DNA of 64,000 nucleotides from a virus (lineage: Duplodnaviria; Caudoviricetes): positions 34,257 to 98,256 of IMG/VR virus record IMGVR_UViG_3300001580_000011; one strand, written 5' to 3'. The notes under the pieces are model-generated. The model had not been told where the DNA came from and made no database searches. It worked only from the letters and a program-made list of their open reading frames with translations. How positions within the stretch are numbered: position 1 is the stretch's first letter; each line of letters starts with the position of its first letter. Shown here in pieces: positions 50,368 through 53,212 of this stretch. The position numbers and the translations under genes are program-made.

Positions 50368-50926
50368 TCGGGTAATATTCATCCTCATAATGAGTGTGGA
50401 ATTTGTGGTAAAGCCAGATTTTCGGCAAAGAAAGTCAGACAAAAATCCAGACAAGAAATTATGAGGGAGTTATCACACGATATGACAGAAGCAGAATGGG
50501 ATAAACTAGCAGAGATGTTTGAGGTTCAAGGATATGACACTGCAGAAGATAAACGAAGGGACACAAAAAGCGATTTATACGATAGCGGTGATAAGGACGG
50601 ACAATCCAAATAGGGATGAATCTTTCTCCATTGGAGAGGATCAAATCCGCACCGTTGCTTGGACAAGTGAATTGCCTGATGCTATGAGAATTGTGAGGGA
50701 CAATATAGGTGATATAGCTGAACTTGGACATTATAGCCTTGTTGTAATCGAGGAAATATACGAAGGTGTATATCCAACAGCAGCCAGACAATGGTGGGCA
50801 ATATGGGATAATAAATTACAAAAGTATATTCAAATCACAAGACCGAAACAGTATAAGAGATTTGGAAGGATTGGAATGTAATATTTTGATGTTAGATAAA
50901 ATCTTGTTTTGGATTGTAGGTAATAT

Positions 50927-51009
50927 AGGGCAGTAACGGAAGCGCCTTCTAAGCGCTGCATTATACCGTAATTGGAAGCATGAGGGTTCGACTCCCTCCT
51001 GCCCTGCCA
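50927..51009 (+). tRNA. tRNA-Arg (TCT) with a rearranged D-arm
   Basis: Perfect 7-bp acceptor, AGCGC-CTTCTAA-GCGCT, canonical T-arm, GCCA end; no D-arm at the normal position. Confidence 0.75.
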
Positions 51010-51013
51010 AATA

Positions 51014-51228
51014 TGTAAAGAGAGGACGAATGAAGCCCAGATAAAGGTGAATGAGCACCGTGGGTATCCGCTCCGTGAAACTCGGAGTGGGAACAGGCTA
51101 AAGGTAGAAAGAGTGACCGGACTCCCATTCCTAGCCCCGCCAGTCAGGCTGGACATCCGCCGGGATTGCCGTGATTGAAGCGACTCATGATAGCAGTGCG
51201 GGATAAGCTACCGATGCCTCTCTTTACA
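51014..51228 (+). ncRNA. Structured ncRNA (~215 nt) of unknown class
   Basis: 12-bp terminal stem TGTAAAGAGAGG/CCTCTCTTTACA and several GC-rich hairpins. Confidence 0.65.
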
Positions 51229-51239
51229 AAATAAAATAT

Positions 51240-51315
51240 GCCCCTGTAGTTGAAAAGGATCAACAAGAGTTTCCTAAACTCCATTATGCGGGTTCAAGTC
51301 CTGTCAGGGGCTCCA
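51240..51315 (+). tRNA. tRNA-Arg (CCT)
   Basis: GCCCCTG/CAGGGGC acceptor, TTCCTAA loop, GGTTCAAGTCC, CCA. Confidence 0.9.
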
Positions 51316-51322
51316 ATAACAT

Positions 51323-51445
51323 ATAGAGTAGCAATGTGTCAGCATTGGTAAGTGTCGGCGGGTCAGGAGCCAAAAAATTGTTCTGACATTACTTCTTTTT
51401 GGAAGACCTGTAATGGTGCCGGGTGGGGAATCCGGTCTACTCTAT
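51323..51445 (+). ncRNA. tRNA-like ncRNA A
   Basis: 9-bp terminal stem, D-like AGCA..GGTAAGTGT, T-like CGGGTGGGGAATCCG. Confidence 0.6.
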
Positions 51446-51453
51446 TATAATAA

Positions 51454-51603
51454 ATGGGATGTTGACCTTTAGCAAGTCAGGTAAGTGTTTCGATGTGCAG
51501 AAGTAAGGTCTACCTACCGTATCTTAGGGCCGCTAACCGTGAGTGCGCAAGTAGGAAGTATAGACCCCAAAGTGAATCGGGTGGGGAATCCGATACATCC
51601 CAT
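51454..51603 (+). ncRNA. tRNA-like ncRNA B (paralog of A)
   Basis: 9-bp terminal stem with the same D-like and T-like motifs. Confidence 0.6.
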
Positions 51604-51614
51604 GAAATAAAATT

Positions 51615-51887
51615 ATGGTAAAGAAAACAAACAAGAAATCAAATCTGAAAAGGAACATCAAAGGTCCCCATAAGGGGAAGAAGAGTGTTACTCCCTATAA
51701 ATTTTATATGGATAGGGACGAGATCATCAAAAAGAAACATAGAGAATATTTGGTTGATAAGATTATAGAAATGGCTATTTGTTCCAGCTCTGATACACGA
51801 AAGGTTGGTGAAGTAATACGAAAACATTTCAAGGATATCGACCTAAGCGAATTGACAGAAGAAGATTTCAATAGAAGAATAAAGTAA
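51615..51887 (+). CDS. Basic hypothetical protein
   Basis: 90 aa ORF within the tRNA cluster. Confidence 0.55.
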   Translation: MVKKTNKKSNLKRNIKGPHKGKKSVTPYKFYMDRDEIIKKKHREYLVDKIIEMAICSSSDTRKVGEVIRKHFKDIDLSELTEEDFNRRIK

Positions 51888-51890
51888 AAT

Positions 51891-51968
51891 ACGCCTGTCG
51901 CTCAATGGATAGAGCACTTGGCTTCGAACCAAGACAAATTGGGGGTTCAAATCCCTCCAGGCGCGCCA
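51891..51968 (+). tRNA. tRNA-Arg (TCG)
   Basis: Cloverleaf, CTTCGAA loop, GCCA end; A1:C72 mismatch. Confidence 0.92.
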
Positions 51969-51974
51969 ATAAAT

Positions 51975-52114
51975 TGACGGGAACCGCATCGTGGGTAGTG
52001 CAACAGGTATAGTCAATGACACTATCGGATAGAGAAGACCATAACAACCGTGCACGGTGAGTTATAATGTGAGTGTTGCCCGAGCTCAAGGCTGTTCGAA
52101 TCAGTTTCCTGTCA
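51975..52114 (+). ncRNA. tRNA-like ncRNA (~140 nt)
   Basis: Terminal stem TGACGGGAA/TTCCTGTCA whose 3' strand directly follows the T-arm CTG-TTCGAAT-CAG. Confidence 0.55.
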
Positions 52115-52185
52115 TTTGAAATTTTGGTGTATGGTGTGGCGCCATAAGATCACAGATTTGGCCTGTGACACACGCCTTGTATAAT

Positions 52186-52264
52186 GGGTCTGTCGCTCAA
52201 TTGGATAGAGCACCTGCCTACGAAGCAGGACAAGTTAGGGGTTCGAATCCTCTCAGGCCCACCA
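52186..52264 (+). tRNA. tRNA-Arg (ACG)
   Basis: Cloverleaf, CTACGAA loop, ACCA end. Confidence 0.95.
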
Positions 52265-52531
52265 ATTTTCACTTAAGGAGGTTTTACTATGAAAATGTGT
52301 GGACGTTGTTACGATGAGGTTGACGAACTATTTCCCTCAAATTGTTTTGATAAACCGGAAGAGTTAGCTGGGGAGGCAGCAATAGGAATGTATCATTGTC
52401 AGGATTGTGGGGCTATGGTTATCGCTGGAATGAAACATCCCGATATGTGTAAACAATGTATAGATAGAAAACACCCGGCGTTTGATTAGTTTTTTATAAA
52501 TATATGAGAACCTATACGGAGAAAGGAAACA

Positions 52532-53212
52532 ATGAAATTCGCAACATACTTATACGAGTTGACTGCCGGTGAAAAATTTGCAAAGGAACAGGCAAAGAAA
52601 TACAAGGGTGTTCCCCAAGATCAGGTTCCCATTGAGGACTTGTGGATATCCATGATGCAGGGTAATACCAAACTGGCGAGAAACATCAAGACCTTCAACC
52701 TACCTGCCATTTTGAGTTGCCCAAACTCCAAAGATTGTGCGAAAGATTGTTATGCCAAGAAGGCCGAAAGAATGAGGCCCGTTGTCCGTGCATCCCGTGG
52801 TCGTAACTTCCGTATGGCCAAAGAGAATACCGAAATGTTGAAAAAAAGAATTCTTCAACATTTGGTGAAAGGTGATGTAGTCCGTATCCACGAATCCGGT
52901 GATATGTTCAGCCAGGAATATCTGGATATGTGGTATGAGATAGCCAAGGAACGTCCCGATGTAATGTTTTATACTTATACAAAAACGGAGCATATTTGGG
53001 ATTGGTCAAAAATCAAGGCCCTTGAGAATTTCAATCTTGTCAGTTCTTTTGTTGGTGGTAAAATCAATTTTGGACCGGAAGATGAAATTAAAATTCGAGC
53101 ACAGGAATTGGGCGTTCCTATTTGTCCATGTAAAAAGGGCAATAAAGTAAAATGTGGTATTGATTGTAAAATTTGCTGGACTGAACCACAAGTATTGTTT
53201 GTCAAGCACTAA
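52532..53212 (+). CDS. Gp88-like Fe-S/radical-SAM-like phage protein
   Basis: FNLPA..SCP..C..CYA, RIHESGD, FYTYTK, C-terminal Cys cluster; TATAAATA at 52495. Confidence 0.78.
   Translation: MKFATYLYELTAGEKFAKEQAKKYKGVPQDQVPIEDLWISMMQGNTKLARNIKTFNLPAILSCPNSKDCAKDCYAKKAERMRPVVRASRGRNFRMAKENTEMLKKRILQHLVKGDVVRIHESGDMFSQEYLDMWYEIAKERPDVMFYTYTKTEHIWDWSKIKALENFNLVSSFVGGKINFGPEDEIKIRAQELGVPICPCKKGNKVKCGIDCKICWTEPQVLFVKH

What the first reader, a model, noticed from the sequence alone, without database searches (positions are those of the whole stretch)
50927..51009. tRNA-Arg(UCU) with a topologically rewired D-arm
Seen: acceptor AGGGCAG, then TA, ACGG, A and directly the anticodon arm, so there is no D hairpin. 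The variable region (50958-50981) contains CCGT-AATTGGA. CCGT (50966-69) is complementary to ACGG (50936-39), and AATTGGA matches the D-loop start of the neighbouring tRNA-Arg(ACG), including G18G19 and A20 (a known ArgRS identity element). The acceptor, T-arm and GCCA end are perfect. Inference: the D-stem 5' strand and D-loop have moved 3' of the anticodon arm and rebuild the L-shape as a pseudoknot, possibly to evade host anti-phage tRNases.
Basis: partly seen in the sequence, partly recalled or inferred. Interest (0 to 1): 0.8.

Follow-up and report, generated by a model that had tools for sequence, protein, structure and literature searches.

The report
Phage arginine tRNA with rewired D-arm
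This 83-base phage gene is very probably a working arginine tRNA (anticodon UCU) that has every standard tRNA part, but half of its D-stem and its whole D-loop lie after the anticodon arm instead of before it; hundreds of phages, including the classic Felix O1, share this non-cloverleaf layout, and I found no paper describing it.

Summary
Window 50927-51009 has a perfect 7-bp acceptor stem, anticodon arm (UCU), T-arm and GCCA end, but no D hairpin. ACGG (50936-39) can pair with CCGT (50966-69) around the anticodon arm, followed by AATTGGA.

This is not a decayed gene. A pattern scan of viral contigs returned over 100 distinct genes with the same layout. In 113 unique sequences the two central pairs of the ACGG/CCGT-type helix are Watson-Crick in 113/113, using all four pair types. 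None of 5000 shuffles matched this.

The core nucleotides are kept: U8, A9, A14, A15, G18, G19, A20 and U48. In members found free of pattern bias, 15:48 covaries (A:U or G:C). Position 20 also tracks the anticodon: A with arginine, U with isoleucine.

A sister lineage carries the same gene with a compensatory A1:U72 to G1:C72 change. More distant relatives have an ordinary tRNA-Arg(UCU) in the same slot of the array.

Cultured phages (Felix O1, Klebsiella KB57, Rhodococcus Trina) carry it unannotated or as "tRNA-OTHER"; ARAGORN misses 109 of 113.

Expression, charging and any anti-defence role are untested. In this copy the helix is nested, not a pseudoknot.

This scan has noted the same design on many other genomes.

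The parts
50927..50933 (+). Acceptor stem, 5' strand (positions 1-7), AGGGCAG
   Evidence: Pairs perfectly with 50999-51005. The sister lineage L003 has G1:C72 instead of A1:U72, a compensatory change.
50934..50935 (+). U8 and A9 connector
   Evidence: TA is invariant in 113 of 113 family members.
50936..50939 (+). ACGG, equivalent to the D-stem 3' strand (22'-25'), continuous with nt 26 and the anticodon stem
   Evidence: Pairs with 50966-69. Across the family the two central pairs are Watson-Crick in 113/113 with four pair types, and the third pair in 83/113.
50940..50940 (+). Nucleotide 26 equivalent (A)
   Evidence: A single nucleotide lies between the rewired helix and the anticodon stem in all members.
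50941..50957 (+). Anticodon arm: 5-bp stem AGCGC/GCGCT and loop CUUCUAA, anticodon UCU at 50948-50950
   Evidence: The stem covaries across the family.
50958..50965 (+). Linker 1 (GCATTATA), bulged between the anticodon stem and the returning D-stem strand
   Evidence: Its length ranges from 3 to 16 nt across the family. L047 and L077 share the same linker type, GCATTGTA.
50966..50969 (+). CCGT, equivalent to the D-stem 5' strand (10'-13')
   Evidence: Complementary to 50936-39; covariation.
50970..50976 (+). Relocated D-loop AATTGGA = A14 A15 U16 U17 G18 G19 A20
   Evidence: Identical to the D-loop start of the neighbouring tRNA-Arg(ACG). A scan that did not specify this motif still found A-A-N(1-2)-G-G-A in every real member. 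A20 is kept in all arginine-type members found free of pattern bias.
50977..50981 (+). Linker 2 (AGCAT), ending in A-U; the last U is the equivalent of U48
   Evidence: The last nucleotide is T in 113/113 where the search pattern left it free. Together with position 15 it covaries as A:U or G:C.
50982..50998 (+). T-arm GAGGG-TTCGACT-CCCTC
   Evidence: the T-loop matches the canonical consensus.
50999..51005 (+). Acceptor stem, 3' strand (66-72), CTGCCCT
51006..51009 (+). Discriminator G73 and encoded CCA end
   Evidence: All four tRNAs of the array encode CCA.
51240..52264 (+). Context: the rest of the arginine-only tRNA array, with canonical tRNA-Arg(CCU) at 51240-51315, (UCG) at 51891-51968 and (ACG) at 52186-52264, and structured RNAs between them
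   Evidence: These are the only tRNAs in the whole 98-kb record.

Best explanation
**What it is.** Window 50927-51009 encodes a functional elongator tRNA-Arg(UCU) with a non-cloverleaf strand order:

acceptor(1-7) - U8 A9 - [D-stem 3' strand ACGG] - 26 - anticodon arm - 8-nt linker - [D-stem 5' strand CCGT] - [D-loop A14 A15 U U G18 G19 A20] - linker ending in U48 - T-arm - acceptor - G73 - CCA.

**Shown.**
- The ACGG:CCGT helix is real, because it covaries.
- It closes around the anticodon arm.
- All nucleotides that build the tRNA core and elbow are conserved.

**Inferred.**
- The helix stacks on the anticodon stem as an ordinary D-stem does.
- The relocated loop reaches the T-loop through G18 and G19.
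- U8:A14 and A15:U48 form.
- The molecule therefore keeps the L-shape.
- The host ArgRS charges it through A20, C35, U36 and G73.
- It reads AGA, this AT-rich phage's commonest arginine codon.

**Origin.** The gene belongs to a large, mostly phage-borne family. In this lineage it took the place of an ordinary tRNA-Arg(UCU) in the first slot of an arginine-only tRNA array.
For: **Gene integrity.** Every part is present and no stem has a mismatch.

**Family.**
About 110 hits share the layout.
- A covariance model built without the window scores it at 74.3 bits. Ordinary UCU tRNAs of relatives score 33-39.

**Covariation of the rewired helix.** The two strands were located only by fixed offsets from the anticodon loop and from the D-loop motif, not by their pairing.
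- The two central pairs are Watson-Crick in 113/113 sequences, with all four types and 28 and 57 double changes. The third pair is paired in 83/113.
- None of 5000 or 500 shuffles reached the observed value.
- Sliding the partner by 1-3 columns drops pairing from 92% to 41-49%.

**Tertiary core.**
- U8 and A9 are invariant, and the last linker nucleotide is U in 113/113.
- G18, G19 and A20 are kept when the scan does not specify them.
- In 14 members found only by the model, 15:48 is A:U in 12 and G:C in 2, with none discordant.

**Identity nucleotides track the anticodon.**
- 105 of 112 aligned members carry arginine anticodons (UCU, ACG, UCG, CCU, GCG), all with C35.
- All 9 bias-free arginine members have A20. 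Four of 5 bias-free GAU/UAU/CAU members have U20 (my Fisher calculation gives about 0.005).
- PMC9976931 Table 1 lists A20, C35, U/G36 and A/G73 for bacterial Arg, and U20 among the Ile determinants.

**Purifying selection in this lineage.**
- The same sequence on four contigs (L003-L006), from four samples by their record names, keeps the gene while both flanks diverge. The body is 77/78 identical.
- It carries a compensatory A1:U72 to G1:C72 change.

**Slot replacement.** Relatives at 75-81% GP88 identity have a canonical tRNA-Arg(UCU) first in the same UCU-CCU-...-ACG-GP88 array.

**Demand.**
- It is the only UCU tRNA in the 98-kb record, and AGA makes up 44.6% of arginine codons.
- In 99 viral loci, only 8 also hold a canonical UCU tRNA.
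Against: - There is no direct evidence of transcription, processing, modification or arginylation.
- Nearest-neighbour folding alone does not single out the proposed fold. It scores -27.0 kcal/mol against an MFE of -27.7, with pair probability about 0.2.
- The outermost pair of the rewired helix is usually U.U or C.U in the family, and the helix has only 3-4 bp.
- The three-dimensional argument rests on known tRNA geometry. It was not modelled.
- Several conserved motifs were partly imposed by my search patterns. Only the subsets named above are free of that bias.
- The record is about 38% complete by CheckV, so another UCU tRNA elsewhere in the genome cannot be excluded.
It does not say which part.
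Confidence: 0.8

Rival explanations
1. It is a tRNA-shaped RNA that is not used in translation. For example, it could be a decoy for a host tRNA-targeting nuclease, or a processing or regulatory element of the tRNA array.
For: - No charging or expression data exist for it.
- It lies among several non-tRNA structured RNAs.
- The phage carries tRNAs for arginine only, which suggests a specific pressure on arginine tRNAs.
Against: - A decoy would not need C35 in all arginine-type members, A20 matched to arginine anticodons and U20 to isoleucine anticodons, an A/G73-rich discriminator, and an encoded CCA in about half the members.
- It occupies the slot of an ordinary tRNA-Arg(UCU) in relatives, and is usually the only UCU tRNA in its array.
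Confidence: 0.1
2. It is a decaying pseudo-tRNA. An ordinary tRNA-Arg(UCU) suffered an internal rearrangement and is no longer under selection.
For: - It scores low on the general tRNA model (34.7 bits).
- ARAGORN can only fit it with a poor alternative fold.
- Annotators label relatives 'tRNA-OTHER' or leave them unannotated.
Against: - All stems are perfect.
- The body is conserved, and a compensatory acceptor-stem change is present while the flanks diverge.
- More than 100 diverse homologues share the same layout, with covariation in all four helices.
- Homologues occur in 268 cultured-phage records for one subfamily alone.
Confidence: 0.03
3. The gene order is rewired only at the DNA level. 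RNA processing (splicing, or cutting and re-ligation as for permuted or split tRNA genes) would restore an ordinary cloverleaf.
For: Permuted and split tRNA genes exist in some algae and archaea (my own knowledge). Phage tRNA arrays often lie near RNA ligase or repair genes; an RNA ligase is annotated near the homologue in one Klebsiella phage record.
Against: - The 5' and 3' ends are in the normal order and pair directly.
- Restoring a cloverleaf would need two cuts and two ligations inside the body.
- No intron-like or bulge-helix-bulge motif is conserved at the junctions, and the linkers vary freely in length and sequence.
- The layout is already explained by a nested helix plus normal tertiary contacts.
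Confidence: 0.03
4. The rewired connectivity exists specifically to escape a host anti-phage tRNase or another host factor that reads the D-arm.
For: - The family is almost confined to phages and phage-like tRNA arrays. Only 12 of 119 pattern hits in 596 Gb of prokaryote genomes are tRNA-like, all on MAG contigs inside dense arrays.
- This phage carries all four arginine isoacceptors. That would fit a colicin-D-like threat (my own knowledge of colicin D).
Against: - In this phage three of the four arginine tRNAs are ordinary cloverleaves.
- Close relatives manage with an ordinary UCU tRNA in the same slot.
- The anticodon stem-loop is unchanged, and as far as I know it is the target of the known anticodon nucleases.
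- No nuclease or defence gene was linked to the family here.
Confidence: 0.15

Closest known systems
Canonical class I bacterial and phage tRNA-Arg(UCU) (Rfam RF00005), for example the ordinary gene at L002:1756-1832 in a related phage
   Same: - 7-bp acceptor stem, 5-bp anticodon stem and CUUCUAA loop
- 5-bp T-arm with a TTCGA loop
- U8, A9, A14, A15, G18, G19, A20 and U48
- G/A73 and an encoded CCA
- The same position in the arginine tRNA array
   Different: The strand order is different. The D-stem 3' strand follows A9 directly. The D-stem 5' strand and D-loop come after the anticodon arm, where the variable loop would be. There is no D hairpin and no ordinary variable loop, so the secondary structure is not a cloverleaf.
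D-armless mitochondrial tRNAs, such as metazoan mt-tRNA-Ser(AGY) and nematode mt-tRNAs (PMC7609411, PMC4013460, PMC9427863)
   Same: There is no hairpin between the acceptor stem and the anticodon stem.
   Different: Those tRNAs have truly lost the D-stem and the D-loop/T-loop contacts, are shorter, and need adapted partners. Here both D-stem strands, the full D-loop motif and a canonical T-loop are kept at normal overall length (83 nt), in phages of ordinary bacteria.
Permuted and split tRNA genes of some algae and archaea (my own knowledge)
   Same: Parts of the tRNA appear in an unusual order in the gene.
   Different: In those genes the halves are swapped at the DNA level and processing restores a normal cloverleaf RNA. 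Here the ends are normal, and the mature RNA itself is expected to have the changed connectivity.
Other non-canonical natural tRNAs: tRNA-Sec, tRNA-Pyl and allo-tRNAs with 8/4 or 9/3 acceptor/T stems (PMC7609411, PMC5389517)
   Same: They are natural tRNAs that depart from the standard dimensions and are missed or mis-scored by gene finders.
   Different: They all keep the cloverleaf order of arms. None moves a D-stem strand and the D-loop to the other side of the anticodon arm.

Membership tests
tRNA (Rfam RF00005) | Score at or above the curated gathering threshold | tested here: met
   34.7 bits against a gathering score of 29. The alignment deletes 11 D-arm positions and inserts 21 nt.
tRNA (Rfam RF00005) | 7-bp acceptor stem, discriminator and CCA; 5-bp anticodon stem with a 7-nt loop (U33, purine 37); 5-bp T-stem with a T-loop consensus | tested here: met
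   All are present without mismatch.
tRNA (Rfam RF00005) | Cloverleaf connectivity: a D hairpin between nucleotides 9 and 26 | tested here: not met
   Only ACGG-A lies between A9 and the anticodon stem. ARAGORN's attempt to force a D-arm shifts the 5' end by 14 nt and leaves mismatches.
   ACGG:CCGT forms 4 bp. The window scores 74.3 bits on a model built from 24 other members.
   AATTGGA is followed by AGCAT.
Bacterial arginine identity set (ArgRS substrates; PMC9976931) | C35, U/G36 and A/G73 | tested here: met
   The anticodon is UCU and the discriminator is G73. The identity set was read.
Bacterial arginine identity set (ArgRS substrates; PMC9976931) | A20 presented in the D-loop variable pocket | tested here: inconclusive
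   An A directly follows G18 G19, and is kept in all arginine-type members. Whether it sits in the right place in three dimensions was not modelled.
Bacterial arginine identity set (ArgRS substrates; PMC9976931) | Aminoacylation with arginine | not testable with these tools
   This needs an in vitro or in vivo charging assay.
D-armless (mitochondrial-type) tRNAs | Loss of the D-stem and of the G18 G19 / T-loop elbow contacts | tested here: not met
   Both D-stem strands, G18, G19 and a canonical T-loop are present and conserved.
Permuted or split tRNA genes | The 3' half is encoded upstream of the 5' half, or on another locus, with conserved processing motifs at the junctions | tested here: not met
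   The ends are colinear and pair directly. The linkers vary in length and sequence and carry no shared motif.
tRNA pseudogene or attachment-site fragment | Truncated or mismatched stems and no purifying selection | tested here: not met
   The stems are perfect. A compensatory change occurs in the sister lineage while its flanks have diverged.

The most novel reading that the evidence does not exclude
Bacterial ribosomes, EF-Tu, RNase P, the CCA enzyme and ArgRS routinely use a natural tRNA whose core is strung in a different order from the universal cloverleaf. This scaffold is old and has radiated in phages to all arginine anticodons and to isoleucine. It sits unrecognised in model phages such as Felix O1. 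[quoted passage not shown]
Probability: 0.7. Interest if true: 0.9.

Novelty: new variant of a known kind. Interest (0 to 1): 0.85.

Why it matters
The cloverleaf order of tRNA arms is treated as universal outside animal mitochondria. A conserved, widespread tRNA class that keeps every part but changes the connectivity would have three consequences.

- **Principle.** It would show that the translation machinery reads the three-dimensional shape and a few nucleotides, not the strand path.
- **Annotation.** The class fills a blind spot. ARAGORN misses 109 of 113 members, and GenBank records leave them unannotated or call them "tRNA-OTHER". Phage tRNA sets and codon-supply analyses are therefore incomplete.
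- **Engineering.** It offers a natural scaffold for engineered or orthogonal tRNAs.

The question is directly testable, because members occur in easily grown phages of E. coli, Salmonella and Klebsiella.

Tried and rejected
- **RNA evidence.** I laid contigs of four RNA-type public runs on 50600-52400. No contig covers the rewired tRNA beyond short, low-identity T-arm matches, so this says nothing about expression.
- **Thermodynamic folding.** The proposed fold is near-optimal but is not the MFE, so this is inconclusive.
- **ARAGORN's 97-nt fold.** This fold (50913-51009) has a mismatched acceptor and D-stem. I rejected it in favour of the perfect 7-bp acceptor at 50927.
- **Close relatives of the window.**
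  - A distant blastn of 50600-52400 against cultured phages found only ordinary tRNA matches.
  - An exact search for the T-arm plus acceptor strand in IMG/VR found nothing.
  - A single-protein locus search gave one relative.
  - The useful relatives came from the GP88 neighbour through the search for homologous proteins and the look-up of encoding contigs.
- **Literature.** Nine full-text searches and three papers read found no description of this layout. Subscription journals are not covered.
- **Earlier check in this scan.** I could not find out which part of the same claim had failed an earlier check.
- **A second short helix in this copy.** GC 50958-59 could pair with GC 50978-79, which would make a pseudoknot. 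This rests on three sequences with no covariation, so I do not claim it.

Full report
**Observation**

- AGGGCAG (50927-33), TA, ACGG (50936-39), A
- Anticodon arm AGCGC-CTTCTAA-GCGCT (50941-57, anticodon TCT)
- 24 nt containing CCGT (50966-69) and AATTGGA (50970-76)
- T-arm GAGGG-TTCGACT-CCCTC
- CTGCCCT, then GCCA (51006-09)

Rfam's tRNA model matches 50927-51006 at 34.7 bits (gathering score 29). It does so by deleting the D-arm and inserting 21 nt in the variable region. ARAGORN calls 50913-51009, but only with a shifted, mismatched acceptor and D-stem. I reject that fold.

The gene is the first of four arginine tRNAs (UCU, CCU, UCG, ACG). The other three are ordinary cloverleaves. The ACG neighbour's D-loop starts with the same AATTGGA.

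**Source**

The window is part of a 98-kb IMG/VR virus record with 35% G+C, estimated 38% complete. The four arginine tRNAs are its only tRNAs. AGA is its commonest arginine codon, at 44.6% of arginine codons in 80 long ORFs. The best DNA holders are runs of a hydrocarbon metagenome.

**Close relatives**

I collected relatives through the neighbouring GP88-family protein (52532-53212).

- *Nearest lineage (93% GP88 identity).* The sequence is identical on four contigs (L003-L006), from four samples by their record names. It carries the same odd gene at L003:160-242.
  - The body is 77/78 identical, while the upstream flank has an 11-nt indel and the downstream flank is unrelated.
  - The first acceptor pair changed on both sides (A1:U72 to G1:C72).
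  - The discriminator is U, and AATTGGA is AACTGGA.
- *More distant relatives (75-81% identity).* L002, L007-L010, L013 and L014 have an ordinary tRNA-Arg(UCU) in the first slot of the same UCU-CCU-...-ACG-GP88 array.

The rewired gene therefore stands where an ordinary one stands in relatives.

**A large family**

I scanned IMG/VR with a pattern that ordinary tRNAs cannot match: anticodon loop, then AAYTGGA, then the T-arm.

After adding the genome hits and removing duplicates, 113 unique sequences remained. I located the two strands of the proposed helix only by fixed offsets, not by their pairing. One strand is the 4 nt ending 6 nt before the anticodon loop. The other is the 4 nt before the AAYTGGA motif.

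Pairing results for the rewired helix:
- The two central pairs are Watson-Crick in 113/113, with all four pair types each.
- The next pair is paired in 83/113.
- The outer pair, at the 13:22 position, is mostly U.U or C.U.
- None of 5000 shuffles reached the observed pairing.

The tool's own count on the MAFFT alignment gives the same figures: 28, 57 and 44 double changes, and none of 500 shuffles reaching the observed values. Pairing drops from 92% to 41-49% when partners are slid by 1-3 columns.

I then built a covariance model from 24 members, excluding the window.
- It scores the window at 74.3 bits, Felix O1 at 60.5 and Rhodococcus phage Trina at 50.7.
- Ordinary UCU tRNAs of the relatives score only 33-39.
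- On 112 model-aligned members, all four helices covary.

**Tertiary core and identity**

- U8 and A9 are invariant.
- The last nucleotide before the T-stem is U in 113/113, where the pattern left it free.
- A scan that did not specify the D-loop motif found the variants TAATGGA, TAACGGA, TAAGTGGA, TAAATGGA, TAACCGGA and TAATAGGA. All fit A14 A15 N(1-2) G18 G19 A20.
- A scan that did not specify the anticodon found the same layout with ACG, UCG, CCU and UCU, plus a few GAU.
- Among 112 aligned members, the anticodons are UCU 57, ACG 25, UCG 13, CCU 9, GCG 1, GAU 4, UAU 2 and CAU 1.

Fourteen members were found only by the model, and so are free of pattern bias.
- All nine arginine-type members have A after G18 G19. 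Four of five GAU/UAU/CAU members have U there.
- Position 15 and the last linker nucleotide are A and U in twelve members and G and C in two, with none discordant.

This matches the Levitt pair. It also matches the published identity sets: A20, C35, U/G36 and A/G73 for bacterial Arg, and U20 among the Ile determinants (PMC9976931).

**How it most likely works**

In an ordinary tRNA the 22-25 strand runs on into nucleotide 26 and the anticodon stem, and the D-stem stacks on the anticodon stem. Here that continuity is kept. The partner strand arrives from the 3' side of the anticodon stem, across a bulged linker, instead of from A9. It then leaves into a normal D-loop, and the D-loop passes straight into U48 and the T-stem.

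The secondary structure of this copy is nested, not a pseudoknot. A long-linker subfamily (L032, L075, L083, L113, L049) has an extra helix between the two linkers: AGTC/GACT, GGAC/GTCC, AGAC/GTCT and AGGC/GCCT. That helix does cross the rewired helix.

That the L-shape is kept, that host ArgRS charges the RNA and that it reads AGA are inferences. They rest on the conserved nucleotides, not on any measurement.

**Distribution and annotation**

- *Cultured phages.* One UCU subfamily alone matches 268 cultured-phage records. These include Salmonella phage Felix O1, Klebsiella phages KB57 and KNP2, Proteus phage Mydo, phAPEC8-like coliphages, jumbo coliphages such as PBECO4, and Streptomyces phages.
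- *Labels.* In the 60 rows listed, the feature under the match is mostly none or a protein. It is "tRNA-OTHER" four times and "tRNA-TERM" once, and never tRNA-Arg.
- *Felix O1.* In the Felix O1 record the gene (L400:2499-2580) is unannotated and overlaps the start of ORF100.
- *Rhodococcus phage Trina.* Trina has a rewired ACG member labelled "tRNA-OTHER".
- *Gene finders.* ARAGORN misses 109 of 113 and mis-ends the other four. Rfam's tRNA model gives 31-41 bits, and 12 of 19 checked members pass.
- *Prokaryote genomes.* In 596 Gb of prokaryote genomes, the same pattern gave mostly chance hits. Only 12 of 119 are tRNA-like, all on MAG contigs inside dense tRNA arrays.
- *Arrays.* Of 99 viral loci, 80 hold other tRNAs, and only 8 also hold a canonical UCU tRNA.

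**Function beyond decoding**

Three of the four arginine tRNAs of this phage are ordinary, relatives use an ordinary UCU tRNA, and the anticodon stem-loop is unchanged. It remains possible.

**Prior knowledge**

Nine full-text searches found no description of this layout. A 2020 review of non-canonical natural tRNAs never mentions phages or permutation (PMC7609411). [quoted passage not shown] The rV5 genome paper lists a tRNA-Arg(AGA) found by tRNAscan and does not comment on its structure; I did not check whether that gene is rewired (PMC3606486).

This scan has noted the same design on many other genomes: 105 notes in at least 92 genomes. I reached my reading before opening those notes, and they agree with it. 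One note says that part of the same claim later failed a check, without saying which part. For that reason I keep function and literature novelty marked as inference.

**Verdict**

- The structural interpretation is supported.
- The "pseudoknot" description does not hold for this copy, and the anti-defence purpose is not supported.
- The gene is a member of a large, apparently undescribed class of phage tRNAs with a rewired core.
- I put the structural reading at about 0.9, and function as a working arginine tRNA at about 0.8.

Noticed in passing
window 51014-51228: A 215-nt G+C-rich structured RNA lies between the rewired tRNA and tRNA-Arg(CCU), closed by a 10-12-bp stem. It is conserved in the sister lineage (L003:340-550) with several compensatory changes. 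It has no Rfam match and no match in cultured phages. Short contigs of 150-250 nt at 99-100% identity, covering little beyond this element, occur in RNA-type libraries of two studies (a sediment metatranscriptome and wastewater cDNA).
   Followed up: partly
window 51323-51603 and 51975-52176: More structured, tRNA-like non-coding stretches fill the gaps of the arginine tRNA array. Two units share the hairpin CGGGTGGGGAATCCG (at 51420 and 51578). Neither is called by ARAGORN or Rfam.
   Followed up: no
window 50927-52264 (whole record G000): The only tRNAs in the 98-kb record are four arginine isoacceptors that together read all six arginine codons. Relatives L002, L007, L013 and L014 also carry arginine tRNAs only in the stretch fetched; L008 adds a tRNA-Met and L011 has 32 tRNAs. 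This suggests a specific pressure on arginine decoding.
   Followed up: partly
L002:638-712 and L002:790-866: Two odd tRNA-Met-like (CAU) elements end in ACCA, and ARAGORN does not call them. One has a shortened connector region. The other has the palindrome GGTGGATCCACC next to the anticodon stem and a non-consensus T-loop.
   Followed up: no
L342:2425-2504, L367:7666-7745, L379:7511-7594, L355:4010-4093, L068:4321-4400, L338, L348: The same rewired layout occurs with isoleucine-type anticodons (GAU, UAU) and with CAU. These members all have A73 and mostly U at position 20.
   Followed up: partly
L274 and L284 (viral contigs): Two tRNA-like genes with a UCU anticodon loop carry a long hairpin in the variable region (for example CCGGG-TTTTCAT-CCCGG). 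This is a class II-like shape that arginine tRNAs do not normally have.
   Followed up: no
L085:5521-5849; L063:2679-2928; L034:8293-8478: Viral contigs that carry rewired tRNAs also hold other RNA genes. L085, which has four rewired tRNAs, has a bacterial-type RNase P RNA (146.8 bits). L063 has a permuted tmRNA, and L034 has a group I intron. L085 could be a mis-binned bacterial contig.
   Followed up: no
L136:4827-4918, L188:5450-5544, L189:6013-6105, L231:60-154: ARAGORN calls unusually long (92-95 nt) tRNA-Ile(UAU) genes in the same dense tRNA arrays of MAG contigs that hold rewired tRNA-Arg(UCU).
   Followed up: no
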